A DNA stretch of 64,000 nt from Streptococcus mitis. GTDB lineage: Bacteria > Bacillota > Bacilli > Lactobacillales > Streptococcaceae. Made by a program: the position numbers and the translations under genes. The notes beneath the pieces are model-generated. The model made no database searches and was not told the DNA's origin. It was given only the letters and a program-made list of their open reading frames with translations. Location of the stretch: contig CAUPZW010000008.1 of the NCBI GenBank assembly GCA_963515655.1, positions 5,019 through 69,018 of the forward strand. The letters are read 5' to 3'. Below, one piece after another: positions 52,811-64,000 of this stretch; positions within the stretch are counted from its first letter, which is position 1; each line of letters starts with the position of its first letter.

Positions 52811-53683
52811 ATGAAAAAACTAGGTTTTATCCTTTTATCTTCAGCCTTGCTATTGACAGCTTGTGCTGTTAGGTTTGAAAAATCAGCAGATACAACCGAT
52901 TCGTCTAAGGTGACAGCCTTGTCTGAAGATAAGCAAAAAATGCTTGATAAGGCCACAGCTGACTATAAGACTTTTGTGCAAGAGCAAATTGATAAACTTT
53001 TGACAGATACGGAAGGCTTTGTCAAACTGTTGAAAGAAGGTAAGTTAGAAGAAGCCAAGAAGGTCTATCCATTGATTCGTATGTCTTATGAGCGTTCAGA
53101 ACCAATTGCCGAAAGTTTTGGTGAGTCAGATGTCAAGATTGACTTCCGTTTGGCAGACTATATGGACGAAAACAAGACCGAGAAAGGTTGGTCAGGTTTC
53201 CATCGTATCGAGCGTATACTTTGGGAAGACAATACAACAAAAGGAACTGAAATCTACGGAGATCAGTTGGTTAATGATATCAAGGAATTGAAAGCTAAGA
53301 TTGCAACTGTAGATGTGGATTACAAGGTTATGTTGACTGGAGCAGTTGACTTGCTTAACGAAGTAGCGACAAGCAAGATTACAGGTGAAGAGGAAATTTA
53401 TTCTCATACAGACTTGTATGACTTCCGTGCCAATATTGAGGGAGCTGAGAAGATTTTCCAACTCTTTAAACCTTTACTTGAAAAATCAGACGCTAACCTA
53501 GTTAAAGAATTGGAAGCAGATTTCAAGTCTGTCAATAGCTTGTTAGACAAACACATGACCGACAAGGAACACTATAAGCTCTATACTGATTTGACAAAAG
53601 AAGATACCAAAGAATTGTCAGAAGCTGTGACAAAACTTGGTGAGCCTCTATCACAAATGGGTAAATTTCTTAGTGGAGAATAA
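52811..53683 (+). CDS. efeO: EfeO/EfeM-type (imelysin-like) iron-binding lipoprotein
   Basis: It has an LTAC lipobox and the GFHRIERILW HxxE metal motif. It is the first gene of the efe operon. Confidence 0.8.
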   Translation: MKKLGFILLSSALLLTACAVRFEKSADTTDSSKVTALSEDKQKMLDKATADYKTFVQEQIDKLLTDTEGFVKLLKEGKLEEAKKVYPLIRMSYERSEPIAESFGESDVKIDFRLADYMDENKTEKGWSGFHRIERILWEDNTTKGTEIYGDQLVNDIKELKAKIATVDVDYKVMLTGAVDLLNEVATSKITGEEEIYSHTDLYDFRANIEGAEKIFQLFKPLLEKSDANLVKELEADFKSVNSLLDKHMTDKEHYKLYTDLTKEDTKELSEAVTKLGEPLSQMGKFLSGE

Positions 53684-53688
53684 GAGTC

Positions 53689-54903
53689 ATGACTGAAAAA
53701 GACGAAAAGTTTTTTGAAAAGAAAATGGACCGTCGAGAATTTCTAAAAAAAGCAGGGATTGGAGGGGCTGGTTTAGCGCTAGGACTCTCTGGTGCTTCTG
53801 CTTTTTTCGCACCTAAGCTAGGAAGTCAGGAAAAAATCTCGTACGGAAATGAAAAAATTGCTTTTTATGGCAAGCATCAAGCAGGGATTAGTACGCCCAT
53901 GCAAAAAAATATCTATTTTGTTGTCTTGGATTTGCATACGACGGATAAGGATAAGATTATTCAGTTGTTCAAGGATTGGACGGATTATAGTGCCAAGTTG
54001 GTCGAGGGGGAATTGGTCAAAAAAGATGGCCAGAATGCTCTCTTGCCTCCGAGCGATACTGGTGAAACAGTCGGGCTCAATCCTCATCGTTTGACGCTAA
54101 CTTTTGGTGTTTCTGCGAGTTTCTTGAAAAAGATGAACTTGGAAAACAATCGTCCACAACTGTTTAGGGATTTACCGCCTTTTCCTAAAGAGCAATTGCG
54201 TGAAAAATATACTGGTGGAGATATTGTGATTCAGGCTTGTGCCGATGATGAGCAAGTTGCCTTTCATGCTATTCGAAATCTCATCCGTAAGGGGAGAAAT
54301 GCGGTGACCCTTCGTTGGAGTCAGTCTGGTTTTGCAGCTATCGGAGATCGAATGGAGACTCCGCGTAACCTCTTTGGTTTTAAAGATGGGACAGCAAATC
54401 CAACCAAGGAGCAAGACTTTGACCGCGTCATCTGGGCTGATAGTAAGGACTGGATGGAAAATGGATCTTATATGGCAGTTCGTCGGATTCAGATGTTTTT
54501 AGAGACCTGGGACCGTACTAGTCTTGAAGAACAAGAAAATACCTTTGGTCGTTACAAGGAAAGTGGTGCCCCCTTTGGTAAGAAAAATGAGTTTGATGAA
54601 GTGGATTTGAGTCTCTTACCTGATGATTCGCATGTTCGTTTGGCTAAAGAAGTGGAGAAACCACTTTTACGTCGTTCTTACTCTTACTCAGATGGGATTG
54701 ATGAAAAAACTGGCCAGTTTGATACGGGCTTGCTCTTCATTTCTTTCCAGAAGGATCCTGATAACTTTGTCAAGGTTCAAACCAATCTAGGTGCTACTGA
54801 TAAGATGAATGAATATATCACTCACATAGGTAGTGGACTTTTTGCTTGCTTTGGTGGTGTGGAGAAAGGAGGCTACATTGGTCAGAAATTATTGGAAGGC
54901 TAA
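53689..54903 (+). CDS. efeB: Dyp-type peroxidase EfeB with twin-arginine signal peptide
   Basis: It has the Tat motif DRREFLKKAG followed by a hydrophobic region, and a Dyp core (FGFKDGTANP). Confidence 0.9.
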   Translation: MTEKDEKFFEKKMDRREFLKKAGIGGAGLALGLSGASAFFAPKLGSQEKISYGNEKIAFYGKHQAGISTPMQKNIYFVVLDLHTTDKDKIIQLFKDWTDYSAKLVEGELVKKDGQNALLPPSDTGETVGLNPHRLTLTFGVSASFLKKMNLENNRPQLFRDLPPFPKEQLREKYTGGDIVIQACADDEQVAFHAIRNLIRKGRNAVTLRWSQSGFAAIGDRMETPRNLFGFKDGTANPTKEQDFDRVIWADSKDWMENGSYMAVRRIQMFLETWDRTSLEEQENTFGRYKESGAPFGKKNEFDEVDLSLLPDDSHVRLAKEVEKPLLRRSYSYSDGIDEKTGQFDTGLLFISFQKDPDNFVKVQTNLGATDKMNEYITHIGSGLFACFGGVEKGGYIGQKLLEG

Positions 54904-56575
54904 AAGCTGGTTCTTGGTTTTAGCTTTGTCATTTTTAATTCTTTCCCCAGTAGGTGCCCAAGAAAGCTTGAGTTCTTACTTTGTAAAAATCACAGATGCT
55001 TCTAAAGCGGTCAAAAATGGGAATCAGTCTGAGGGCCAGAAACTCGTTCAGGAGATGGCAACAGACTTTGAAAGAGTAGAAGACAGTAATTCTGAGGCTG
55101 GTAAAGTCGTTAAGGAAAAGTTAGCTCAATCAGGAGATATCACTGAAGATAAACTCACTGAAATTTCTTCAGCCTTATTAGCCTTTGAAAAAGAACAAAA
55201 TCCTATGGATTTAGATGCGGAAAAGGAAAAATTGGTAAACCGTCTAAGTCCTCGTTTTGAAGCCTTGGAACAAGCCATTGCCTCTAAAGATTTGGAAAAG
55301 GTTCGAGAATCCTTTAAGAAAATGAATTCCACTTGGACCATCAATGAAAGTGTGGTTCGTGACAATAGTACAGCTCATTATGGACGTGTTGAAACAGCCA
55401 TCTCTTTTCTGCGTAGTAGTATGGAAACCGAGCCTACAGATTTCAACTCAATCCAGACTTCCTTTGAGAACTTAAAAAAGGCTATTGATGATTTTGTAAC
55501 TGGAAAAGAAATAGCAGCAACATCTTCGGATTTGACTCTCAAAGACGGCATTGCCCTTTTGAAGAAGGCTTTGGAACAATTTCAAGCTGGTGATCAAGCA
55601 TCAGGAGCCGCTAGTATGAAGGAATTCATCACTATCTGGCCAACAATTGAAGGTTCTGTTAGCACGACCAATCCTTCCCTCTATACTCGAGTGGAAAGTG
55701 AAAGCCCTGTGATTATGGTCAAGGGAAGTGAAAAGGAATACCAAGAAAAATTAGAAAAACTGATTGCAGATTTATCACAAATTGATACCAGTGCACGTTA
55801 CAATGCCTTTGATGCTATGCTCATTCTCCTGAGAGAAGGTGTAGAGGCCCTTTTAATCGTTATGGCTTTGGTAACGACCTTGAAAGCAGCCAAGCTGCGT
55901 AAAGGGCTCAAGTGGGTTTATGGTGGTGCTATCACAGGAATCATGGCAAGTCTGGTTATTGCTTTCATCCTGCAAATTGCTTTTCCAGCAGTGACATCAG
56001 GATCCAATCGTGAAATCATAGAAGGAGCAGTGGGGATTTTTGCGGTAGTTATGATGATTTTGATTGGAATCTGGCTTCACAGCAAGTCCTCAGTCAAAAA
56101 ATGGAATACCTTTATGGAGTCACAAATGGAAACAGTGACTAAGACAGGTTCCTTTATTTCCATGTTTGCTCTCAGTTTTCTAGCTGTTTTCCGTGAGGGA
56201 GCAGAAACCATTCTCTTTTATGTTGGGATTCTACCAAGAATTTCCAGCTTTGAATTTGTCTTGGGAATTTCTCTTGCCTTGCTAGTTCTGGTAATTATTG
56301 CCGTTGTGATGAACAAGGCCAGTCAATTCTTCCTGCCACATAAGGTTTTCTTTATCCTGACTTGGATGATTTATGCCTTAGCCTTTAAGATGCTGGGGGT
56401 TAGTATCCATGCTCTTCAGTTGACCAATATGGCACCAAATCACTTGCTGACAGGATTTCCAACAAACGACCTGCTTGGAATTTACCCAAGTTGGGAAGGT
56501 TTGATCAGTCAGCTAATCTTTATTATTATTGTCTTGATTGTCACTTTCAGACAGGGTGAAGAATACGATGGATAG
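54878..56575 (+). CDS. efeU: FTR1-family iron permease EfeU with long N-terminal extracytoplasmic domain
   Basis: The TTG at 54878 follows a GGAGAAAGGAGG RBS. The signal peptide ends VGA/QE. Two REXXE motifs (REGVEA, REGAET) sit in the C-terminal 7-TM half. Confidence 0.8.
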   Translation: MVRNYWKAKSWFLVLALSFLILSPVGAQESLSSYFVKITDASKAVKNGNQSEGQKLVQEMATDFERVEDSNSEAGKVVKEKLAQSGDITEDKLTEISSALLAFEKEQNPMDLDAEKEKLVNRLSPRFEALEQAIASKDLEKVRESFKKMNSTWTINESVVRDNSTAHYGRVETAISFLRSSMETEPTDFNSIQTSFENLKKAIDDFVTGKEIAATSSDLTLKDGIALLKKALEQFQAGDQASGAASMKEFITIWPTIEGSVSTTNPSLYTRVESESPVIMVKGSEKEYQEKLEKLIADLSQIDTSARYNAFDAMLILLREGVEALLIVMALVTTLKAAKLRKGLKWVYGGAITGIMASLVIAFILQIAFPAVTSGSNREIIEGAVGIFAVVMMILIGIWLHSKSSVKKWNTFMESQMETVTKTGSFISMFALSFLAVFREGAETILFYVGILPRISSFEFVLGISLALLVLVIIAVVMNKASQFFLPHKVFFILTWMIYALAFKMLGVSIHALQLTNMAPNHLLTGFPTNDLLGIYPSWEGLISQLIFIIIVLIVTFRQGEEYDG

Positions 56576-57299
56576 AAAAGAATTGACAATCGTTGAACAT
56601 CTGGTAGAATTTAGAAAGAGATTATTGGCAGTGGTCATTTGTTTCTTTTTGGTATTCTGTGTCTCCTTGCTTTTCGCAGACCAGATTTACCAGTATGTGA
56701 CCCAATTTTTTCAGCAAAAGTTGATTGTTTTAGGGCCAAATGATATTTTATGGATTTACATACGCTTAGCTAGTCTGATGGCCTTTACTATCACCCTACC
56801 TTACACGGTGTATCATATTTGGTCTTTCATTAAACCTGGTTTAAAGAAGGAAGAAGCTAGAGCTATTTTTGCTTATATTCCAGCTAGTTTCCTTTGTTTT
56901 CTAGTTGGACTGGCTTTTGGTTTTTACTTTGTAACACCAGCCTTACTTCAGGTTTTATTAGGGCTAGGAGAAGGACTATTTGAAACGCAGTTAACAGCCC
57001 AAAATTATCTGTCCTTTGTTTTTCAAACGACCTTGCCCTTGGCTCTGATTTTTGAATTGCCGGTTATCATTGCCTTTTTGACGTCGATTGGGCTCATTGG
57101 ACCAGAATTGTTGATTGCTTATCGCCGATATGCTTATTTTATCTTATTGGTACTTGCAGTCATCTTGACACCAGCCGACTTTGTTAGTGATTTGGCAATG
57201 ACTGCCCCCTTGATTTTACTCTATGAATTGAGTATTGCTATCAGCAAACACATTATGAAACGCAAGCAGAAAGGAGCGAGAAATGGGAATCTTACGTGA
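56568..57299 (+). CDS. tatC: Twin-arginine translocase subunit TatC
   Basis: It has the MDRKELTIVEHLVEFRKRL start typical of TatC and six TM segments. Its start overlaps the efeU stop. Confidence 0.9.
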   Translation: MDRKELTIVEHLVEFRKRLLAVVICFFLVFCVSLLFADQIYQYVTQFFQQKLIVLGPNDILWIYIRLASLMAFTITLPYTVYHIWSFIKPGLKKEEARAIFAYIPASFLCFLVGLAFGFYFVTPALLQVLLGLGEGLFETQLTAQNYLSFVFQTTLPLALIFELPVIIAFLTSIGLIGPELLIAYRRYAYFILLVLAVILTPADFVSDLAMTAPLILLYELSIAISKHIMKRKQKGARNGNLT

Positions 57300-57453
57300 T
57301 ATCGGAGCACCAGGATTGATTATTATCGTTTTAGGAGCTCTCTTAATCTTCGGACCAAAACGATTGCCTGAACTAGGCGAATCAATTGGTAAAATGCTAT
57401 CCGAATTTAAAAAAGCAGTTAAAGGAAATGAAAATCAAGATAAGGAAGACTAA
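57283..57453 (+). CDS. tatA: Twin-arginine translocase subunit TatA (56 aa, below the ORF-track cutoff)
   Basis: An AAGGAG RBS precedes it. The product is MGILRDIGAPGLIIIVLGALLIFGPKRLPELGESIGKMLSEFKKAVKG..., with the canonical TatA TM segment, FGPK hinge and amphipathic helix. Confidence 0.88.
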   Translation: MGILRDIGAPGLIIIVLGALLIFGPKRLPELGESIGKMLSEFKKAVKGNENQDKED

Positions 57454-57470
57454 ATCTTGTCTAATAAAAA

Positions 57471-57522
57471 ACTTTGTACTCTGGTAACCATTGTGTGGCT
57501 AGCTAGAGTGCAAAGTTTTTTT
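57471..57522 (+). terminator. efe-tat operon intrinsic terminator
   Basis: It is an ACTTTGTACTCT...AGAGTGCAAAGT hairpin followed by T7. Confidence 0.65.
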
Positions 57523-57802
57523 GAGCTTGGAAAATTTGGAATTAAAAACTGATTTTAAAAATTCATGATTAAGCCTTTTATGGGTGGTCATAATTGATGT
57601 TTACAAAATTTTAAGAAAAATCAGGACAATAGTGATATATTTAAGAAGCTAATTCATAGATTATCTGATATATCCGTCCAAGATCTTGAAAAAATTGATT
57701 GACTGTTAGATATCATTTTCATTCCATATCAAGAATCAAAACAACTAAAAACAGAAGTAGTGTTTAGATAGGAAACTTTTTTAGATGTTAGAGACCCTGA
57801 TT

Positions 57803-57958
57803 TTATGATAAAATAAGTAGAAGATTTATATTTGTAGTTAATCTTATGTCCTTGTAAAATTTTTGTATTTTTAAATGTTTTTTTAAGAAATAATATTTTA
57901 AATACAGAGATAAAATATAGCCAAATAAAGAGTAGTGTAAAATTTGAATTGCCTTCAT
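57803..57958 (-). CDS. Possible 51-aa hydrophobic/basic peptide, divergent from the LytTR operon
   Basis: An AAAGGAAAG RBS lies 4 nt upstream of the ATG. The product is MKAIQILHYSLFGYILSLYLKYYFLKKHLKIQKFYKDIRLTTNINLLLILS. The context is AT-rich, so chance ORFs are likely. Confidence 0.25.
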   Translation of the reverse strand: MKAIQILHYSLFGYILSLYLKYYFLKKHLKIQKFYKDIRLTTNINLLLILS

Positions 57959-58067
57959 AGCTTTCCTTTCATTAGAAATTAGTTTATCAAATGAAGAAAG
58001 ATTAATATTATTGAGATACTAAAAAGTATCTATTTTATCCTGAAATGTCTAAATTAAGAAAATTTTT

Positions 58068-58098
58068 ACAATTTGAGATAGTATAGAAACCATTTGAG
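58068..58098 (+). promoter_or_regulatory. LytTR-type direct-repeat operator (two 10-mers in 21-bp phase)
   Basis: The sequence is ACAATTTGAG-atagtatagaa-ACCATTTGAG, with 9 of 10 positions identical and starts exactly 21 bp apart. It lies 61 bp upstream of the 58159 ATG. Candidate -10 elements are TATAAT at 58104 and TGATAAGAT at 58126. Confidence 0.55.
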
Positions 58099-58158
58099 AT
58101 TTTTATAATTTAATTTCCATCATTCTGATAAGATTAAACTTATAGAAGGAGGCTAAAT

Positions 58159-58491
58159 ATGAAAGACTATATTTTATATCAAGATAGAGCTATCGTAAAG
58201 GTACCACTCTCTAAAATTTATTATGTTACAACTCACCCAACAAAAGCTCATGCTGTTCTTTTTGTAACAGCAGAAGGGAATTTTGAAGCTTCAACCTCAC
58301 TAGCTAAAATCGAAGAGGAAAGTACAGAAGAACTTATTAGATGCCATAGAAAGTTTCTTGTGAATAAAGATAAAATAGCAGGATTTAATCATGAGACAAG
58401 AACGATTATGTTTATGGATGATAGAGTATCAGACATCGCTTGTTCTAGAAGACACTTTACAATATTAAAAAATCAGTGGAAAAATATATAG
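58159..58491 (+). CDS. Stand-alone LytTR DNA-binding domain protein (BlpS-like)
   Basis: An AGGAGG RBS precedes it. The 110-aa product aligns by eye with the C-terminal LytTR domain of the next gene (IYYV/LLYIET, CHRKFLVN/CHRSFIVN) and has no receiver domain. Confidence 0.8.
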   Translation: MKDYILYQDRAIVKVPLSKIYYVTTHPTKAHAVLFVTAEGNFEASTSLAKIEEESTEELIRCHRKFLVNKDKIAGFNHETRTIMFMDDRVSDIACSRRHFTILKNQWKNI

Positions 58492-58501
58492 GAGTGAAGT
58501 A

Positions 58502-59242
58502 GTGAATATTTTTATACTAGAAGATAATTTTTTACAACAGACTAGAATTGAAAATGTTGTCAAAAAAATTTTGGTGGATAATAAGATTGAGTATAGGCAT
58601 TTTGAGGTTTATGGAAAACCTCAACAGCTTTTAGAGGACATTTCAGAGAGAGGAAATCATCAATTATTTTTACTTGATATTGAAATAAAAGATGATGACA
58701 AAAGAGGATTAGACGTTGCTAGAGAAATTAGAAAACTTGATTCTCAAGCAGTGATTGCTTTTGTAACATCACATTCTGAGTTTATGCCTGTATCTTTTGA
58801 ATATTTAGTATCGGCTATCGATTTTATTGATAAAGAATTACCTGAACCGACATTTATAAAACGTCTTGAAAATGTTATTTTAAATGTTAGTAACAATCAA
58901 GGAAGAACAGTATCTGAGGACTCTTTTATATTTACAGGATCTAAAGCTCAAATTCAAGTCCCTTTTAAAGATTTATTGTATATTGAGACATCGTCAATCG
59001 CCCATAAGTTGACACTCTATTCAAAACGAGACATAGTTGAATTTTATGGACAATTATCCGAAATCATAGAACAGGAACCACGTTTATTTCAATGTCATAG
59101 ATCATTTATCGTAAATCCTTATAATATATCTTCAATTGATAAAGAAAATCGGGTAGTTCATTTTCAAAACGGGTCCTCTTGCATTGTCTCTAGATTAAAA
59201 ATACGGTCACTTATGAAAGCTGTTGAAAGACTACATGACTAA
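58502..59242 (+). CDS. LytTR-family response regulator (ComE/BlpR/AgrA type)
   Basis: It has a receiver domain (ILEDN..., LFLLDIEI phospho-Asp region) and a C-terminal LytTR domain. It starts with GTG after an AGGAG RBS. Confidence 0.9.
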   Translation: MNIFILEDNFLQQTRIENVVKKILVDNKIEYRHFEVYGKPQQLLEDISERGNHQLFLLDIEIKDDDKRGLDVAREIRKLDSQAVIAFVTSHSEFMPVSFEYLVSAIDFIDKELPEPTFIKRLENVILNVSNNQGRTVSEDSFIFTGSKAQIQVPFKDLLYIETSSIAHKLTLYSKRDIVEFYGQLSEIIEQEPRLFQCHRSFIVNPYNISSIDKENRVVHFQNGSSCIVSRLKIRSLMKAVERLHD

Positions 59243-59252
59243 GGAGATTTAG

Positions 59253-60578
59253 ATGGTATTTTTGCTAGATATTATAAGTGTTTTTCTATTGTTATGTATC
59301 CATGCTAGGGTTGTAGATGAGCGATTAAATCTAAAAAAACTAGTAGTGTCCATTATTCTGTACTATCTTTCAATATTACTATTCATTGTTGTATTTAAAT
59401 CAACAGAATTTTATTTTTTTGGGTCGTTATTGATTTATCCCACTTTTTTTATCTTGTATACTTTGTCTATTGGTGAATTAAGAAGTAAGGTCTCTTTATT
59501 ACTTTTTTACTCATTATTTCCACTTGGATTTTGGGATGTCATCAGAAATTTTTTAGGTTACTTTATAATTTCTAAGATTCCAATATTGTATAGACTATAT
59601 GAAACTAATCTAGGAACAATGATTTTCTCTTTATTAGCTGAAATTATTGTGTTTTTTCTTATTAGTCTCTTTCGATATAATTTTAGTCATTTAAAAATAA
59701 AGAACTTGGATAGAAAGACAAAATTTATTTTAATTACTGCGGATACTTTAATGCTAGCTTATTTTATCTTACCATCTTATATAAACTACAGTGATAAAGT
59801 AAGTTGGGATAGAATGTTGGATTATAAAGAATTATTGACAGCAGTTTACTTTTTATTGTTTATTTGTTTTGTTAATCTATTGGATAGAAAATTACTTCAA
59901 GAATTACAGGAGAAAGTCGTTCTACAAAAAGAAATTCAATTGCAAAATCTTAGTAATTATAGTCAACAAGTTGAGGGGCTGTATCAAGAAATTAGAAGCT
60001 TTAGACATGATTATGCTAATATTTTGTCAAGCTTAAAAATAGGTATAGATCAAAAAGATATTAATATGGTTTCTCAAGTCTATGATAGTGTTTTGAAAAA
60101 TTCTGGTGAAAAATTAAAAGGCAAGCGTTTTGATGTAGCACATCTAAGAAATATCAATGATTTGGCGCTAAAGAGTTTACTATTATCTAAGTTATCGGAG
60201 GCTCAAAACTTATCTGTTCCAGTTTCCCTGGAGATTAGTGAACAGTTCTCTATTAAAAATATGGAACAAATTGACTTCTTAACAATTACTTCTATCTTGT
60301 TAGATAATGCTATAGAGTCCTCAGCAGAGGGAGGAATAGCAGTTTGTTTCCTTGAAGATAGAGAATGGAATAAATTAGTCATGATTGTTAAAAATTCTAC
60401 TTTAGAAAGAGAGATCGAACTGAGAGATATATTCAAGCGTGACAATTCTTCAAAAGGAGTAGGACGGGGTATAGGATTGGCCAATGTTCGAAGAATCTTA
60501 AAATCTTATCCAAATGTATGTTTGAAAACTACAAGTAAAAATTATGTCTTTACACAGATTTTGGAAATAGAACTTTAA
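59253..60578 (+). CDS. HPK10-family peptide-sensing histidine kinase (AgrC/ComD/BlpH type)
   Basis: It has about six N-terminal TM segments, the H-box FRHDYANIL, the N-box LLDNAIES and the G-box SSKGVGRGIGLANV. Confidence 0.9.
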   Translation: MVFLLDIISVFLLLCIHARVVDERLNLKKLVVSIILYYLSILLFIVVFKSTEFYFFGSLLIYPTFFILYTLSIGELRSKVSLLLFYSLFPLGFWDVIRNFLGYFIISKIPILYRLYETNLGTMIFSLLAEIIVFFLISLFRYNFSHLKIKNLDRKTKFILITADTLMLAYFILPSYINYSDKVSWDRMLDYKELLTAVYFLLFICFVNLLDRKLLQELQEKVVLQKEIQLQNLSNYSQQVEGLYQEIRSFRHDYANILSSLKIGIDQKDINMVSQVYDSVLKNSGEKLKGKRFDVAHLRNINDLALKSLLLSKLSEAQNLSVPVSLEISEQFSIKNMEQIDFLTITSILLDNAIESSAEGGIAVCFLEDREWNKLVMIVKNSTLEREIELRDIFKRDNSSKGVGRGIGLANVRRILKSYPNVCLKTTSKNYVFTQILEIEL

Positions 60579-61098
60579 AAGAGCTATCATTCTTAGGATA
60601 TTCTATTGAATATTTTAAGGAGGGGCTCTTTTGTTATAGCTTTATAGACATTTAAATGCTCAATTTATAGCAAACATAGGAATTCTGACGTAACCATTTT
60701 ATGGTGACTCTCTTTCATTACTTTGATTCTAGGGTCAGGGGCCAAATGATAAGATGGTCTTTTTTTTAATAGATAAGGTATTCATTAATGGAAACTATGG
60801 AGGGGTAAGGAATTTCCTCTATGTTAAAGAGGATCATATCAGTTTGAATGGCTCTGGTTTCAAAGTCTATTTCTTTGGATTACATGATGATAGTAAGGTA
60901 AGTTGTACCTTCCTTATTTTTTAGCTAGTTCCTGTAAATGAGTTAGGAAATAGTCATAACAATAAAACTGGGCAAAAAAGCTAGAGTGACGAGTTCACAA
61001 TATCTAGCATCGATTTGTGGAACAAATTTTAAAATGGTTTATTTTTAATATTGAAAGGTTACAAATCATGAAAAAATACGTTTCGTGATGAAAAAAGT

Positions 61099-61203
61099 AC
61101 ATTTAAAGACTTTGTGGTAAAAATCTCTTCTTTCCTGATATACTGAACTTGTCAAGGTTATAATCTCATAAAATCATATATTATAGAGGATCTACTCATC
61201 GTG
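61099..61203 (+). promoter_or_regulatory. Duplicated promoter module, copy 1 (drives the 76-aa membrane ORF)
   Basis: It shares the runs ACTTTGTGGTAAAAATC (17 nt), TATACTGAACTTGTCAAG (18 nt) and TTATAATCT (-10) with copy 2. It ends in a decayed leader start, GTGGAAGCAAAAACAACTCATTCAAAATAG. Confidence 0.6.
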
Positions 61204-61255
61204 GAAGCAAAAACAACTCATTCAAAATAGTTTTAAAAAAAGAAGAGGTGCTAAT

Positions 61256-61486
61256 ATGTTAAATGAAACTATGATTCAGCTTATACTCATTGCGATTTGT
61301 TGCATGTACATTATTTTTAACACCAAGGCTGATAAAAACCCAAAGAGAGGATATCGTACAGCTTTGTACCTTTTCGTTTTGGCTGGTATTATATCGTATA
61401 TTATGAACTATCTAAATTGGTTAGATTTTTTCTTATTAATAACTCCGATAATGTGTCTATTTAAATTTGAAGATAAGTGGAGTTAG
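61256..61486 (+). CDS. 76-aa three-TM membrane protein (bacteriocin immunity-like)
   Basis: A GAGGTG RBS precedes it. It has three hydrophobic segments and sits behind promoter-module copy 1 in the bacteriocin islet. Confidence 0.5.
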   Translation: MLNETMIQLILIAICCMYIIFNTKADKNPKRGYRTALYLFVLAGIISYIMNYLNWLDFFLLITPIMCLFKFEDKWS

Positions 61487-61488
61487 CA

Positions 61489-61591
61489 GCATGTAAATAC
61501 TTTGTGGTAAAAATCGATTTTGTACTGCTATACTGAACTTGTCAAGATTATAATCTGACAAAAAATACCTATTATATAGGAGGTATCCATT
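61489..61591 (+). promoter_or_regulatory. Duplicated promoter module, copy 2 (drives the GG-leader peptide operon)
   Basis: It has the same conserved blocks as copy 1, with the -10 TATAAT at about 61549 and the AGGAGG RBS at 61578-61583. Confidence 0.6.
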
Positions 61592-61789
61592 GTGAATATA
61601 AAAACTATCGAACAAGTTAATGTGCGAAAAGCTGATACTCTTGCTACTGTTGAAGGAGGTAAAAATGACTTGACATGTATTTTAGATACGGCAGGGATGG
61701 TTGAGATAGGCTTTTTCAACGCTGATCCTGTTAGTGTTACATTTGCGATTTCAACAGGCGGGCTAGCGGCAGAAAGTTTTTGTAAATAA
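61592..61789 (+). CDS. Double-glycine-leader class II bacteriocin-like precursor (23-aa leader + 42-aa mature peptide)
   Basis: It starts with GTG 8 nt after AGGAGG. The leader MNIKTIEQVNVRKADTLATVEGG fits the GG-leader pattern (hydrophobic at -4, -7 and -15). The mature peptide is KNDLTCILDTAGMVEIGFFNADPVSVTFAISTGGLAAESFCK. Confidence 0.75.
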   Translation: MNIKTIEQVNVRKADTLATVEGGKNDLTCILDTAGMVEIGFFNADPVSVTFAISTGGLAAESFCK

Positions 61790-61932
61790 TGAGAAAAATA
61801 ATTAGTATATTTTATATTATTTCTCTAGGAATCTTGTCTTTACTAAAGTCACAAGATATTGTTGATATCATAGCAACTCTACTATTGATTTGTATAGGTT
61901 TAAAAGGAATAAACCAAAAGGGAACTTTATAA
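61789..61932 (+). CDS. 47-aa two-TM peptide (immunity-like), below the ORF-track cutoff
   Basis: Its ATG overlaps the TAA of the bacteriocin gene (TAATG). The product is MRKIISIFYIISLGILSLLKSQDIVDIIATLLLICIGLKGINQKGTL. Confidence 0.45.
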   Translation: MRKIISIFYIISLGILSLLKSQDIVDIIATLLLICIGLKGINQKGTL

Positions 61933-61936
61933 GGTT

Positions 61937-62116
61937 GTGACGACTATAATTTTTAGCCTCATTACATGTTTGGACAATGTTTCATTTGTTAATTTCCAAA
62001 TTGAGAATGGGGGTATTGTAACTAACTGTGATTGTGAGTCAACTAAAGATGTCATGGCTAATGGTTGGATATCATCATTGGGGAGGAGATATTGGATTTT
62101 AGCTTATAGAGGATAA
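61937..62116 (+). CDS. Possible second GG-containing peptide (59 aa), speculative
   Basis: The frame is open from the GTG at 61937. The product is (M)TTIIFSLITCLDNVSFVNFQIENGG/IVTNCDCESTKDVMANGWISSLGRRYWILAYRG. The RBS is poor and the leader deviates from consensus. Confidence 0.25.
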   Translation: MTTIIFSLITCLDNVSFVNFQIENGGIVTNCDCESTKDVMANGWISSLGRRYWILAYRG

Positions 62117-62119
62117 TTT

Positions 62120-62419
62120 ATGGATAAGAGAACAGAAGAAATTCTTAATAAGATTTATAATTTGATTTTAGATACAGATATTCATAAAAATGAACGAGAT
62201 ATTTTATTACGTTATAAAATTCTATTAGAGAATACAAAAAATGAGCAGAGAGTTGTCATGGAGTTGGCTGAAGCTCTTCGTCAGCAGGCTGTTAGTGGGA
62301 TTAATAGTCACAAATCAATGAGCCCAAAGGTTGCGACATTTTATAAAGAAATTGCCACATATGGACAATTGAGTAAAAATCTAGCTCAAGGATTAATTTC
62401 TTTTGGTATAACGAGATAA
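62120..62419 (+). CDS. Four-helix-bundle bacteriocin immunity protein (enterocin A immunity-like family)
   Basis: The 99-aa product is predicted all-helical. Its N-terminal EEILNKIYNLILD...NERDILL pattern resembles streptococcal class II immunity proteins. Confidence 0.6.
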   Translation: MDKRTEEILNKIYNLILDTDIHKNERDILLRYKILLENTKNEQRVVMELAEALRQQAVSGINSHKSMSPKVATFYKEIATYGQLSKNLAQGLISFGITR

Positions 62420-62494
62420 GGAAAATGAGCAGAAAAAACTTACCAAGTTTTTAACAAGACAAAAAATTTTTTATATAAATCTAAGGAAGTATTC

Positions 62495-62572
62495 ATGATG
62501 AGACAATTTGAAGTAATATTGTCCAGCATTGAAGGTGGACTTTCATGTTTTGAGAAGGAATTGTTGCTTTAG
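62495..62572 (+). CDS. 25-aa GG-leader peptide (MMRQFEVILSSIEGG/LSCFEKELLL), either a short signal peptide or a frameshifted bacteriocin
   Basis: A good AAGGAAG RBS lies 5 nt upstream. The neighbouring frame (62554-62631) reads EGIVALGGHGGAIISFLGRTGDIES*, a Gly-rich bacteriocin-like tail. Confidence 0.4.
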   Translation: MMRQFEVILSSIEGGLSCFEKELLL

Positions 62573-62638
62573 GAGGACATGGTGGAGCTATTATAAGCTT
62601 TTTGGGAAGAACTGGAGATATAGAAAGTTGAGGTACAG

Positions 62639-62812
62639 ATGAAGCATCGTTTAATAATTGCAATTAGTTTTATAATGACTGGGATAGCCATTAACATTTT
62701 ATTCGAATCAAATACTATTATTCATAAATTTATTGCTATATTAGGTCTGAGTATGTATTATAGAGGTGTTTTTAGAGAGTATAAAAATTTTAAAAACAAT
62801 TCAGATTTTTAA
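62639..62812 (+). CDS. 57-aa two-TM peptide (immunity-like), below the ORF-track cutoff
   Basis: A GAGG RBS lies 5 nt upstream. The product is MKHRLIIAISFIMTGIAINILFESNTIIHKFIAILGLSMYYRGVFREYKNFKNNSDF. Confidence 0.45.
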   Translation: MKHRLIIAISFIMTGIAINILFESNTIIHKFIAILGLSMYYRGVFREYKNFKNNSDF

Positions 62813-62971
62813 ATTTTATATTAAATCACGTAATTTGTGTGGCCTTAAAATTTGTGATTTAATAAACTTTATAAAATTGTAAAACAAAAAAAGTACCTAA
62901 TAGCATACTGAATACTTTGGATCAATAGTCATGTAACAAAAAAAGAACAGCTGAAACTGTTCTTTTTATCA

Positions 62972-63214
62972 TTATTTGAGACCGTATTTTTTGTTGAAAC
63001 GATCCACGCGTCCATCTGCTTGAGTGAACTTTTGACGTCCAGTGTAGAATGGGTGTGAGTCTGATGAAATTTCCACACGGATCAATGGGTAAGTTTCGCC
63101 TTCGAACTCAACTGTTTCGTTAGAGCGTTTTGTTGAACCGCTAAGGAATTGGTAACCAGTAGTTGTGTCCATGAAGACAACTGGGCGATATTCTGGATGG
63201 ATATCTTTTTTCAT
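62972..63214 (-). CDS. rpmE2: 50S ribosomal protein L31 type B (no CxxC zinc motif)
   Basis: It starts [16 protein letters not shown] after an AAAGGAA RBS. The track's 63256 start is an upstream extension. A bidirectional terminator lies at 62940-62970. Confidence 0.92.
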
Positions 63215-63309
63215 TTTGCAATATTTCCTTTCTGCCATGGTCTCTTTGCGAGCCATAGATTGTTACCATACTAGTCTATCAGATTCTGAAAAGTTTGGCA
63301 AGTATTTTA

Positions 63310-64000
63310 TCAGTTTTTAAGCAAGTTTTTTAACTTTTGATAGATGATTTCGTTTTCTTCTAGGCTATAGGAATTAGCACCACTTGCTAGAGGGTGGCCT
63401 CCACCATCATGTTCCTTGGCAATTTCATTGATAGGATGGATTTTACTGCGTAAGCGAACACGGTAGTGACCATCAGCCTGCTCCACAAAAATTCCCCAGA
63501 GGTTGACACTGTCAATGCGTCCAGGTGCACCGACAATGGCTGCAGTTTCAGCATCGGTAACATTGAATTGTTTCAAGACTTCTTGACTCAGGATAATGCG
63601 AGCAGCACCATTTTCATCCACTTCTAGATGGTCGTAGATGTAGCCTTGAAGTTTAGCAATTTTGTAGCTCATAGTGTCCATTTTGCGAGTGAGAGCCGCA
63701 AAGTCAAAGTTTTGTTCTCTCAGAGACGCAGCTAGGCGGAGGGTCCGTGCAGTCGTAGAAGGGTAGAGGAATCGACCTGTATCACCAACAATTCCTGCAA
63801 AGAGCAACTCAGCAGCTCGATCTGACAAGGCCAGTTGGGTTGTTTGGGCAAATAGGGTAATCATCTCGCTAGCACTGCTTGAACTAGTATCCACCCAAGA
63901 TAGATCACCATATACATCATCATTTGGATGGTGGTCAATCTTAATGAGAAAATCACCTTGACTATAGCGCTTATCATCTATACGAGCAGTATTAGCTGTA
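63310..64000 (-). CDS. nrnA: DHH/DHHA1 phosphoesterase (NrnA-like oligoribonuclease / pAp phosphatase); N-terminus lies outside the window
   Basis: The frame stays open to base 64000 and includes the IDHHPN DHH motif. The C-terminal GGGH DHHA1 motif (HDGGGHPLASGA) is present. Confidence 0.85.
   Translation of the reverse strand, partial: TANTARIDDKRYSQGDFLIKIDHHPNDDVYGDLSWVDTSSSSASEMITLFAQTTQLALSDRAAELLFAGIVGDTGRFLYPSTTARTLRLAASLREQNFDFAALTRKMDTMSYKIAKLQGYIYDHLEVDENGAARIILSQEVLKQFNVTDAETAAIVGAPGRIDSVNLWGIFVEQADGHYRVRLRSKIHPINEIAKEHDGGGHPLASGANSYSLEENEIIYQKLKNLLKN

What the first reader, a model, noticed from the sequence alone, without database searches (positions are those of the whole stretch)
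57454..62970. Orphan blp-like LytTR quorum-sensing / bacteriocin islet between tatA and rpmE2, with no intact pheromone gene and no C39 exporter
Seen in the sequence: about 5.5 kb that is visibly more AT-rich than both flanks. It contains a LytTR-only protein, a LytTR response regulator and an HPK10 kinase. These are followed by double-glycine-leader peptide genes and at least four small immunity-like ORFs. Established knowledge: in the canonical blp, com and pln loci, such kinases are paired with an adjacent GG-leader pheromone gene and a C39-peptidase ABC exporter (BlpAB/ComAB type). Neither is present here, and the flanks are housekeeping genes (tatA, rpmE2, nrnA). Inference: this is a stripped-down sensing and effector module. 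It would depend on an exporter and perhaps a pheromone encoded elsewhere or by other strains (eavesdropping). Alternatively it is a decaying locus. The S-R-H genes being co-directional with the effector genes also differs from the pneumococcal blp layout as I recall it.
Basis: partly seen in the sequence, partly recalled or inferred. Interest (0 to 1): 0.75.

Follow-up and report, generated by a model that had tools for sequence, protein, structure and literature searches.

The report
Blp bacteriocin locus missing pheromone/exporter
This is a streptococcal bacteriocin quorum-sensing (blp-type) gene cluster that has lost its pheromone and exporter genes by an old deletion and now probably only listens for other cells' pheromone to switch on immunity genes, a configuration already described in Streptococcus mitis and pneumococcus.

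Summary
A 5.4-kb AT-rich islet (about 57522-62928) lies between tatA and rpmE2. It carries blpS (LytTR-only), blpR (LytTR regulator), blpH (HPK10 kinase), peptide genes with double-glycine (GG) leaders, and immunity-like genes. It has no intact pheromone or C39-exporter gene.

It is not a new stripped-down architecture. In 12 of 34 informative mitis-group species-representative genomes, orthologous blpSRH (88-96% identical) is followed by convergent blpC-blpB-blpA. The window keeps a decayed 5' remnant of blpA (about 60700-61047, minus strand) and a truncated blpT. It is therefore a deletion derivative missing about 4 kb.

The regulators are intact and under purifying selection (dN/dS 0.12-0.23), and BlpR-type boxes with extended -10 elements are present. 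The bacteriocin genes are degraded: one is frameshifted, one is 5'-truncated and one is a chimera. Immunity genes are intact.

The best reading is a receiver-only immunity ("cheater" or eavesdropper) locus, induced by BlpC made elsewhere. Equivalent cases are published: pneumococcal blpA cheaters, S. mitis cassettes lacking blpC/blpAB, and "iblp" loci cross-induced by another locus. I judge it a new member of a known kind, of low to moderate interest.

The parts
57466..57522 (+). tatA terminator hairpin. It marks the left junction of the islet. The same ~68-bp element is duplicated on both sides of the alternative cargo in contig L052.
   Evidence: RNA fold gives -28.2 kcal/mol, z = -5.9. blastn against L052 places the junctions.
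57573..57779 (+). Relic, with an in-frame stop, of a small ORF (91 aa in L011). In other genomes this ORF lies in an ICE-like/lantibiotic context upstream of the blp cassette. It is not a GG leader.
   Evidence: blastn shows 85% identity to L011 5809-6014, and also to L017 and L026. Translation of the L011 ORF. Pfam context of L011: DUF5965/DUF5945, LanC, Toprim.
57777..57958 (-). blpT pseudogene. Only about the first 61 of 132 codons remain, with a frameshift. It is annotated elsewhere as a 51-aa ORF at 57803-57958.
   Evidence: tblastn with the 132-aa L011 protein gives two pieces in different frames. Cross-context homology ends at 57777.
58070..58134 (+). blpS promoter: LytTR direct repeats AATTTGAGA-N12-CATTTGAGA (58070-58099), 26 nt, then extended -10 TGATAAGAT (58126-58134).
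   Evidence: Only perfect match in the 64-kb window to the pattern MATTTRAGA-N12-CATTTRAGA, which I derived from this promoter and L011's, and best match (1 mismatch) to the published AATTCAAGA-type BlpR box consensus. Sequence shown. Same architecture as the S. mitis blp promoters in Table S4 of PMC11921387.
58159..58491 (+). blpS: 110-aa protein consisting of a LytTR domain only.
   Evidence: Pfam LytTR E 2e-16. 27% identical to the LytTR domain of the adjacent regulator. dN/dS 0.12.
58502..59242 (+). blpR: response regulator with receiver and LytTR domains.
   Evidence: Pfam. NCBIfam AgrA-like match below cut-off. Distant match to pneumococcal ComE 4CBV (141 bits, roughly 35-40% identity by eye). 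dN/dS 0.13.
59253..60578 (+). blpH: HPK10-type pheromone-sensing histidine kinase, 441 aa, intact.
   Evidence: Pfam HATPase_c_5; AgrC-like. H-box FRHDYAN is visible in the sequence. dN/dS is 0.05-0.13 in the kinase half and 0.2-0.96 in the sensor half.
60700..61047 (-). Decayed 5' remnant of blpA (C39-peptidase region, about residues 8-115) with several stops and frameshifts. It marks the deletion scar of blpC-blpB-blpA.
   Evidence: tblastn of L011 BlpA: 61026-60781, residues 8-90, 51% identity, E 2e-16. Six-frame reading. blastn deletion map.
61078..61144 (+). First promoter of the bacteriocin-immunity region (BIR): ACGTTTCGTG - ATGAAAAAAGT - ACATTTAAAG (61078-61108), 27 nt, then extended -10 TGATATACT (61136-61144).
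   Evidence: Conserved in loci with and without blpABC. Nearly identical to the 'blp1 bac1' promoter ACATTTCGTG ATGAAAAAAAG ACATTTTATG of S. mitis (Table S4 of PMC11921387).
61256..61486 (+). BlpF-like immunity protein, 76 aa, membrane protein.
   Evidence: Near-identical to proteins named BlpF1/BlpF2 in PMC11921387. dN/dS 0.14.
61490..61586 (+). Second, partial copy of the BIR promoter. Only the downstream half and the extended -10 TGCTATACT (61526-61534) are kept; the upstream repeat is lost.
   Evidence: Alignment of promoter copies.
61592..61789 (+). GG-leader peptide, 65 aa, GTG start, leader ends VEGG. It is an in-frame chimera of two neighbouring peptide genes.
   Evidence: GG scan. Weak Bacteriocin_IIc hit. 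blastn shows a 184-bp deletion relative to L008 that joins peptide A to the 3' end of peptide B. The exact peptide is common in metagenomes.
61789..61932 (+). 47-aa small membrane protein, immunity-like.
   Evidence: ORF conserved at 89-100% in related loci. No family hit.
61937..62116 (+). 5'-truncated relic of a garvicin-Q-like class II bacteriocin gene. The leader and the N-terminal part of the mature peptide are missing.
   Evidence: NCBIfam GarQ_core E 0.0014, below cut-off. Homology to the full-length L026 gene starts only at 61992. Full-length versions occur in loci that keep blpABC.
62120..62419 (+). Enterocin-A-type bacteriocin immunity protein, 99 aa.
   Evidence: Pfam EntA_Immun E 1e-13. 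Named 'bacteriocin immunity protein' by NCBI.
62495..62640 (+). Frameshifted GG-leader bacteriocin pseudogene (MMRQFEVILSSIEGG|LSCFE...).
   Evidence: The alignment to the intact L011 gene is 2 nt longer on the window side (window 76 nt, L011 74 nt). Intact versus broken versions compared.
62639..62812 (+). 57-aa small membrane protein, immunity-like. Last gene of the cassette.
   Evidence: Conserved at 67-100% at the end of related cassettes. Cross-context homology ends at about 62820.
62940..62967 (.). Terminator hairpin between the islet and the convergent rpmE2. It lies outside the islet proper; the right junction is at 62929.
   Evidence: Terminator scan. Junction.

Best explanation
The islet is a blp-family bacteriocin quorum-sensing locus. 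It belongs to the second, 'blp1/TCS14-like' lineage of the mitis group, not to com and apparently not to the pneumococcal-context blp. Its ancestor had the canonical layout blpT<- ->blpS-blpR-blpH <-blpC-blpB-blpA ->BIR. A deletion of about 4 kb removed blpC, blpB and most of blpA.

Shown:
- The deletion scar.
- Intact blpSRH under purifying selection.
- BlpR-type direct-repeat boxes with extended -10 elements in front of blpS and the first effector operon.
- Intact immunity-type genes.
- Degraded bacteriocin genes.

Inferred mechanism: BlpS, BlpR and BlpH are still made. The cell cannot make or export its own pheromone from this locus. BlpH therefore responds only to BlpC-type peptide supplied from outside the locus, either by co-resident mitis-group strains that carry the intact version or by another blp locus in the same genome. 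The predicted ligand family is NLWKNFDNLMLNKHRYSRFLN. This is the BlpC encoded next to the closest intact BlpH, which is 94% identical in the sensor half. BlpR~P then activates the promoter at 61078-61144. This turns on the BlpF-like, EntA-type and small membrane immunity proteins, and a possibly inactive chimeric peptide that would need ComAB or another C39 exporter. BlpS probably competes with BlpR at the same boxes as a brake. The net phenotype is a receiver-only immunity locus, that is, a 'cheater' or eavesdropper.
For: Orthology and synteny:
- In 12 of 34 informative species-representative loci, SRH at 88-96% identity is followed by a 46-aa GG-leader BlpC, a 452-aa HlyD-type BlpB and a 717-aa BlpA with C39, ABC_membrane and ABC_tran domains.
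- The window has a blpA remnant (E 2e-16, multiple stops) and a truncated blpT. The deletion endpoints are mapped.

Retention of function:
- blpH is full length in nearly all loci that lack blpABC.
- dN/dS is 0.12 for S, 0.13 for R, 0.23 for H (0.05-0.13 in the kinase half) and 0.14 for the BlpF-like gene.
- Promoter boxes and extended -10 elements are conserved and match the published S. mitis blp1-type promoters.

Effector asymmetry:
- Loci that keep blpABC carry full-length bacteriocin genes. Loci that lack it carry truncated or frameshifted ones but intact immunity genes.

Receptor matching:
- The BlpH sensor of S. shenyangsis, whose locus lacks blpABC, is 99% identical to that of an intact locus. 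The window's sensor is 94% identical to L011's. L011 and L048 share an identical BlpC while their sensors are only 91.5% identical.

Precedents:
- Pneumococcal blpA-frameshift cheaters still respond to exogenous BlpC and gain immunity (PMC3171984).
- S. mitis loci that lack blpC are induced by BlpC of another locus (PMC11921387).
- ComAB and BlpAB are promiscuous exporters (PMC6016807).
- BlpS is a repressor that competes with BlpR in S. gallolyticus (PMC8545106).
Against: - No expression or ligand data exist for this locus.
- blpT, blpA and two or three bacteriocin genes are already pseudogenes, so decay is under way.
- The small immunity ORFs show only weak constraint (dN/dS 0.45-0.58, on few substitutions).
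- The second BIR promoter copy has lost its upstream repeat.
- Pairwise dN/dS among recombining alleles does not prove present-day function in this particular strain.
- Whether this genome has another blpC or blpAB, or comAB, could not be checked.
- The predicted ligand rests on sensor similarity alone.
Confidence: 0.7

Rival explanations
1. Non-functional relic. After blpABC was lost, the whole locus is decaying neutrally. The intact SRH only reflects how recent the loss was, or repair by recombination from intact alleles.
For: blpT is truncated, blpA is reduced to a stop-ridden remnant, one bacteriocin gene is frameshifted, one is 5'-truncated and one is a chimera. A few related loci have a broken blpH: L024 has a stop, L037 and L038 have frameshifts. 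The site can also hold other cargo (L052).
Against: The blpA remnant is only about 51% (amino acid) and 70-74% (nucleotide) identical to intact blpA, while SRH is 93-96% identical. The deletion therefore looks old, yet SRH stayed intact in about 20 of 22 species-level lineages that lack blpABC, with dN/dS 0.12-0.23. The decay is selective: it hits bacteriocin and exporter genes, not the regulators or the BlpF and EntA immunity genes.
Confidence: 0.2
2. A satellite locus wired to a master system in the same cell. The genome carries another complete blp locus, and/or com. That system's pheromone, exporter or regulator (BlpC cross-talk, ComE binding, ComAB export) drives this islet, so no other strain is needed.
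For: S. mitis strains carry two or three blp loci each. Loci that lack blpC are induced by the BlpC of blp1 in the same strain (PMC11921387). S. pseudopneumoniae carries TCS14 in addition to com and blp (PMC6593409). The blpS box CAATTTGAG-N12-CCATTTGAG is intermediate between the published ComE boxes (GCAGTTGGG-N12-GCATTTGGG) and the BlpR boxes. ComE weakly activates blp promoters in pneumococcus (PMC4739728).
Against: In the genome scan, each species-representative genome whose locus lacks blpABC yielded a single locus with this BlpH type, apart from one MAG with two and assemblies whose locus is split across contigs. More divergent systems would not have been detected. Nothing in the 64-kb window encodes a second system. 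This rival differs from the best explanation only in the source of the signal.
Confidence: 0.3
3. One reading: a distinct, previously unrecognised orphan LytTR sensing and effector module, designed to work without its own pheromone or exporter.
For: There is no intact pheromone or exporter gene in the islet or in the 64-kb window. The form lacking blpABC is the majority, 22 of 34.
Against: The blpA remnant and the intact orthologous loci show that it is a deletion derivative of a complete blp locus. The same state is already described for S. mitis (PMC6722419; PMC11921387).
Confidence: 0.03

Closest known systems
Incomplete blp loci of Streptococcus mitis (iblp5.1/iblp5.2, blp6) and S. mitis blp cassettes that lack blpC/blpAB (PMC11921387; Kilian & Tettelin 2019, PMC6722419)
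   Same: blpT/S/R/H are kept. blpC (and exporter) is absent. The content is dominated by immunity genes. BlpR boxes with extended -10 elements are present. In the published cases, induction by BlpC supplied from another locus was shown experimentally. Only 4 of 20 S. mitis strains have intact blpAB, and 20% have blpC.
   Different: The published iblp5 loci use pneumococcal-type boxes (ACAATTCAAG). This islet uses the blp1-type boxes (ACGTTTCGTG...ACATTTAAAG). It sits between tatA and rpmE2, keeps a visible blpA scar, and still has one possibly translatable GG peptide.
S. mitis 'blp1' locus (PMC11921387) and S. pseudopneumoniae TCS14 (PMC6593409)
   Same: A second LytTR/HPK10 bacteriocin system in the mitis group, distinct from com and from the pneumococcal-context blp. 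The bacteriocin promoter is nearly identical (ACATTTCGTG ATGAAAAAAAG ACATTTTATG ... TGATATATT). The SRH-CBA-BIR layout is seen in intact relatives. Four S. pseudopneumoniae genomes carry this SRH.
   Different: blp1 is complete and its BlpC is G[L/W]WEELYETITTPLKLRTTFKP. Intact relatives of this islet encode peptides of the NLWK[ND]FD[ND]L... type.
Pneumococcal blp locus with disrupted blpA ('cheater' or BlpAB(-) 'opportunist' strains; Son 2011, Wang 2018)
   Same: The exporter is lost, blpSRH is retained, and the strains respond to exogenous BlpC and express immunity. They rely on ComAB for any export.
   Different: Pneumococcal cheaters keep blpC and a frameshifted full-length blpA, and they can self-signal through ComAB. 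Here blpC is gone entirely, so no self-signal can come from this locus. The regulators are a different lineage: a BlpS search did not retrieve pneumococcal BlpS.
ComCDE competence system
   Same: HPK10 kinase plus LytTR regulator, with direct-repeat boxes spaced about 12 bp apart.
   Different: The regulator matches pneumococcal ComE only distantly (141 bits, roughly 35-40% identity by eye). There is no comC. The associated genes are bacteriocin and immunity genes. A BlpS gene is present.
S. gallolyticus GSP-BlpHR-BlpS gallocin system (PMC8545106)
   Same: A LytTR-only BlpS is encoded upstream of blpRH in one operon. This gives a model for BlpS as a competitor of BlpR at the same operator.
   Different: It is from a different species group, and that locus is complete with pheromone and exporter.

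Membership tests
blp (bacteriocin-like peptide) quorum-sensing locus | HPK10-type histidine kinase paired with a LytTR response regulator | tested here: met
   HATPase_c_5 with an AgrC-like match; Response_reg plus LytTR. H-box FRHDYAN is visible in the sequence.
blp (bacteriocin-like peptide) quorum-sensing locus | LytTR-only BlpS encoded immediately upstream of blpRH, with a divergent blpT | tested here: met
   110-aa LytTR-only ORF 11 bp upstream of the regulator. blpT is present only as a truncated, frameshifted relic.
blp (bacteriocin-like peptide) quorum-sensing locus | Adjacent GG-leader pheromone gene blpC | tested here: not met
   No blpC by tblastn or by a GG-leader scan of the whole window. 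It is present downstream of blpH in 12 orthologous loci.
blp (bacteriocin-like peptide) quorum-sensing locus | C39-peptidase ABC exporter BlpA with accessory protein BlpB | tested here: not met
   Only a decayed fragment covering about residues 8-115 of blpA remains. Intact 717-aa and 452-aa genes occur in orthologous loci.
blp (bacteriocin-like peptide) quorum-sensing locus | Operons preceded by two 9-10 bp direct repeats about 11-12 bp apart, plus an extended -10 | tested here: met
   58070-58099 with TGATAAGAT; 61078-61108 with TGATATACT. The format matches Table S4 of PMC11921387. Binding itself was not tested.
blp (bacteriocin-like peptide) quorum-sensing locus | Bacteriocin-immunity region with GG-leader bacteriocins and cognate immunity genes | tested here: inconclusive
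   The immunity genes are intact (BlpF-like, EntA_Immun, and two small membrane ORFs). The bacteriocin genes are frameshifted, truncated or chimeric.
Pneumococcal-context blp (TCS13, SP_0524-0547 orthologue) | Same chromosomal context and close orthology to pneumococcal BlpS/R/H, with AATTCAAGA-type boxes on effector promoters | tested here: not met
   The cassette lies between tatA and rpmE2 here and at three or more other, different sites elsewhere. The effector promoter is of the blp1 type, not AATTCAAGA. A BlpS homology search returned only 19 clusters, none named as pneumococcal. No direct protein comparison with pneumococcal BlpRH was possible.
ComCDE | Regulator orthologous to ComE (highly conserved in the mitis group, from general knowledge), with comC upstream of comD | tested here: not met
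   Distant match only to ComE 4CBV, 141 bits. No comC-like ORF.
Incomplete/receiver-only blp locus ('iblp', blpAB(-) cheater) | blpSRH retained; blpC and/or exporter non-functional; immunity genes retained; inducible by exogenous BlpC | tested here: inconclusive
   The first three features are met. Inducibility cannot be tested with these tools and rests on published precedents.

The most novel reading that the evidence does not exclude
The form of this blp1/TCS14-like cassette that lacks blpABC is not an occasional defect. It is the majority state, maintained by selection, across mitis-group species clusters (22 of 34). Its receptor alleles stay matched to the pheromones of the minority of producers that keep blpABC. 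The cassette moves as a unit among at least four chromosomal sites, including ICE-adjacent ones. This would be a cross-species, community-level producer/listener polymorphism in the oral microbiome.
Probability: 0.35. Interest if true: 0.45.

Novelty: new member of a known kind. Interest (0 to 1): 0.27.

Why it matters
The islet adds a well-resolved example to the known picture in which many commensal mitis-group streptococci keep the 'ears' (BlpH/BlpR/BlpS) and 'shields' (immunity genes) of a bacteriocin system while losing the 'voice' (BlpC), the exporter and the 'weapons'. The example has a visible deletion scar, nested deletions, selective decay of toxin genes and conserved regulators.

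It gives a concrete, testable ligand prediction for a receiver-only receptor. It shows that the same cassette occupies several chromosomal sites. This is relevant to how immunity to bacteriocins spreads among oral streptococci and to interpreting bacteriocin-gene surveys. It does not reveal a new kind of system.

Tried and rejected
1. Early idea: 57590-57770 (+) hides a decayed GG-leader pheromone gene ('...LSDISVQDLEKID*'). Rejected. It is a relic of a 91-aa ORF found in an ICE-like context in L011.

2. Idea: the organism is S. thermophilus, because of Tat/EfeUOB and an exact kinase present in hundreds of metagenomes. Rejected. Named homologues are S. mitis, S. infantis and S. shenyangsis, and the exact proteins are in S. 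mitis SK579.

3. Looked for canonical AATTCAAGA BlpR boxes on the effector promoters. None were found. The promoters turned out to be of the blp1 type, with the real -10 at TGATATACT/TGCTATACT rather than at the downstream TATAAT.

4. Apparent 19-bp-spaced 'ACTTTGT' repeats and a TCATGAAAA/TGATGAAAA repeat were considered as novel operators. I dropped them once the blp1-type register explained the conservation.

5. The ORF at 60754-60924 (56 aa, + strand) was considered as a gene. It is the antisense strand of the blpA remnant.

6. The short peptide MMRQFEVILSSIEGG|LSCFEKELLL was considered as a possible new pheromone. Rejected as a +2-nt frameshift of a bacteriocin gene that is intact in L011.

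7. Rfam scan of 56000-64000: only a sub-threshold L31 leader hit.

8. A direct protein comparison with pneumococcal BlpR/BlpH and with S. mitis blp1 or S. pseudopneumoniae TCS14 could not be made.

Full report
**What is there**

The segment from about 57250 to 63000 has 24-33% GC, against 38-45% on both sides. On the + strand it holds three regulatory genes:
- a 110-aa protein that is only a LytTR domain (58159-58491);
- a 246-aa receiver + LytTR response regulator (58502-59242);
- a 441-aa kinase with the HATPase_c_5 domain, whose nearest NCBIfam model is AgrC (59253-60578).

Downstream lie, in order:
- a 76-aa membrane protein (61256-61486);
- a 65-aa peptide with a VEGG leader (61592-61789);
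- a 47-aa membrane protein (61789-61932);
- a 59-aa ORF with a weak garvicin-Q-core hit (61937-62116);
- a 99-aa enterocin-A-type immunity protein (62120-62419);
- a short IEGG-leader ORF (62495-62572);
- a 57-aa membrane protein (62639-62812).

The flanks are tatC/tatA upstream, and rpmE2 and nrnA downstream on the other strand. A six-frame scan of all 64 kb finds GG-leader ORFs only in this islet, and no paralogue of the three regulators elsewhere.

**Where it comes from**

The exact kinase occurs in hundreds of metagenome assemblies. The exact proteins are those of Streptococcus mitis SK579. Homologues at 93-99% identity are labelled S. mitis, S. infantis and S. shenyangsis.

**The decisive comparison**

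A scan of one genome per bacterial species returned 39 loci with this kinase at 85-97% identity, in S. mitis, S. pseudopneumoniae, S. infantis, S. shenyangsis, S. nidrosiense and unnamed Streptococcus.

In 12 of the 34 loci with enough flanking DNA, blpH is followed on the opposite strand by three genes:
- a 46-aa GG-leader peptide, for example MDKKQLSLKKFPTISSEDLLKIYGG|NLWKNFDNLMLNKHRYSRFLN;
- a 452-aa HlyD-type protein;
- a 717-aa protein with Peptidase_C39, ABC_membrane and ABC_tran domains.

These are followed by the effector genes on the same strand as S-R-H. This is the canonical layout: blpT, blpSRH, convergent blpCBA, then the bacteriocin-immunity region (BIR). S-R-H being co-directional with the effectors is therefore normal.

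The other 22 loci, and every islet seen at the tatA-rpmE2 site, lack blpCBA.

The window still carries the scar:
- Residues 8-90 of BlpA match 61026-60781 on the minus strand (51% identity, E 2e-16). The reading continues to about residue 115 through several stops and frameshifts.
- At the DNA level, window 60658 corresponds to a point 80 bp after blpH in the intact locus L011. The next matching block (60718/60803-61026) is the 5' end of blpA. About 4 kb is missing.
- Some relatives have a further 262-bp deletion and others have no remnant at all, so the deletions are nested.
- The divergent upstream gene blpT (132 aa in L011) is cut to about 61 codons and frameshifted.

**Which LytTR system it is**

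The regulator matches pneumococcal ComE (PDB 4CBV) only distantly, at 141 bits and roughly 35-40% identity by eye. This is not comDE.

Three observations suggest it is also not the pneumococcal-context blp:
- The cassette sits at four or more different chromosomal sites: tatA/rpmE2 here; prfB-ftsEX...metK in L014; carB...fruRKA in L019; and next to lantibiotic/ICE-type genes in L011 and L026.
- A homology search with BlpS returned only 19 clusters, none of them pneumococcal.
- The effector promoter, ACGTTTCGTG-ATGAAAAAAGT-ACATTTAAAG followed by 27 nt and TGATATACT, is almost the same as the 'blp1 bac1' promoter tabulated for S. mitis. It is unlike the ACAATTCAAG boxes of pneumococcal-type loci.

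S. pseudopneumoniae is reported to have an extra LytTR system, TCS14, next to a ComC/Blp-type peptide and bacteriocins. Four S. pseudopneumoniae genomes carry the present cassette. The assignment to a 'blp1/TCS14-like' lineage is an inference, because I could not align against those proteins directly.

**Is the circuit still usable?**

The blpS promoter has the only perfect repeat pair in the 64 kb, AATTTGAGA-N12-CATTTGAGA, followed by 26 nt and TGATAAGAT. The first effector promoter is conserved between loci with and without blpABC. The second copy, at 61490-61586, has lost its upstream repeat.

blpH is full length in almost all loci that lack blpABC. The exceptions are L024, L037 and L038.

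Pairwise dN/dS against other loci lacking blpABC:

| Gene | dN/dS |
|---|---|
| blpS | 0.12 |
| blpR | 0.13 |
| blpH, whole gene | 0.23 |
| blpH, kinase half | 0.05-0.13 |
| blpH, sensor half | 0.2-0.96 |
| BlpF-like immunity gene | 0.14 |
| The three other small immunity ORFs | 0.45-0.58 (few substitutions) |

Sensor alleles in loci lacking blpABC match those in intact loci. The S. shenyangsis sensor is 99% identical to that of L017, and the window's is 94% identical to that of L011. For comparison, L011 and L048 share an identical BlpC although their sensors are only 91.5% identical.

**Effectors**

Loci that keep blpABC encode full-length bacteriocins. Loci that lack it mostly encode broken ones. 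In the window:
- The 62495 gene has a 2-nt insertion relative to the intact L011 gene.
- The 61937 ORF lacks the leader and the N-terminal part of a garvicin-Q-like bacteriocin; homology to the full-length gene starts at 61992.
- The 65-aa peptide is an in-frame fusion of two neighbouring peptide genes, created by a 184-bp deletion.

The immunity-type genes are intact. The 76-aa protein is near-identical to proteins named BlpF, and the 99-aa protein is EntA_Immun.

**Mechanism proposed**

The locus acts as a receiver only. BlpH senses BlpC made elsewhere. BlpR~P then activates the promoter at 61078-61144 and the immunity genes are expressed. BlpS probably competes with BlpR at the boxes, as shown for S. 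gallolyticus. Any peptide export would need ComAB or another C39 transporter, which are promiscuous in pneumococcus.

The structure, the selection signals and the promoter elements are shown. The signalling itself is inferred from precedents:
- Pneumococcal blpA-frameshift 'cheaters' respond to exogenous BlpC and gain immunity.
- S. mitis loci lacking blpC are induced by the BlpC of another locus in the same strain.

The signal source could be other strains or a second system in the same genome.

**Novelty**

Kilian and Tettelin (2019) already reported that all S. mitis strains have a blp cassette with the regulators. Only 4 of 20 have intact blpAB, 20% have blpC, and few have bacteriocin genes. 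The 2025 S. mitis study named 'incomplete' blp loci and proposed a defensive role for them.

The present islet is another member of that class, in the blp1-like lineage and at a different chromosomal site. The site itself is a cargo hotspot. One contig carries a ParE/RelB pair there, flanked by two copies of the tatA terminator hairpin.

**Verdict**

This is a new member of a known kind, and interest is low to moderate.

Noticed in passing
L052 10172-11128 (corresponds to window 57522-62928): At the same tatA-rpmE2 site, one metagenome contig carries a ParE-toxin/RelB-antitoxin pair instead of the blp islet. The pair is flanked by two copies of a ~68-bp hairpin element. The window has a single copy, which is the tatA terminator. 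The site behaves as a cargo hotspot.
   Followed up: partly
window 57466-57522: A strong hairpin (-28.2 kcal/mol, z = -5.9) followed by a U-run, directly after tatA. It is duplicated in L052. It could be just the terminator, or a small repeat element that mediates cassette exchange.
   Followed up: partly
window 57573-57779; L011 5830-6105: The left edge of the islet holds a relic of a 91-aa ORF. In L011, L017 and L026 this ORF lies among DUF5965/DUF5945/DUF5966, Toprim-primase, LanC and Spa1-immunity genes, an ICE or lantibiotic-island context. This hints that the cassette travelled with a mobile element.
   Followed up: partly
L014, L019, L011/L026 versus the window: The same blpSRH-BIR cassette (homology block window 57777-62820) occupies at least four unrelated chromosomal contexts in different mitis-group genomes. 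L011, L012 and L048, which represent different species clusters, have 100% identical BlpA, BlpB and BlpC. This suggests recent horizontal transfer.
   Followed up: partly
window 58070-58099: The blpS box (CAATTTGAG-N12-CCATTTGAG) is intermediate between the published ComE boxes of S. mitis comA promoters (GCAGTTGGG-N12-GCATTTGGG) and the BlpR boxes. Competence (ComE) might therefore drive blpSRH expression. This was not tested.
   Followed up: no
L035 11866-12009: In one locus that otherwise keeps blpABC, blpC has an in-frame stop inside the mature peptide (KNIWKKIEDFFHINNRVT*FLN). This is a different route to loss of the signal.
   Followed up: no
L024, L037, L038 (blpH): Three related loci have a stop or a frameshift in blpH, so complete loss of the receptor also occurs in some lineages.
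   Followed up: no
window 63225-63258 (minus strand): A sub-threshold Rfam hit to the L31-Firmicutes ribosomal-protein leader, upstream of rpmE2 (25.5 bits against a gathering score of 33.3; E 0.05).
   Followed up: no
window 52811-57453: Upstream of the islet lies an EfeO (Peptidase_M75) / EfeB (Dyp peroxidase) / FTR1 permease / TatC / TatA iron-uptake and Tat cluster. Most of the S. mitis loci examined lack it (it was found only in L013 and L037 among the genome loci). In L052, efeO and efeB are fragmented.
   Followed up: no
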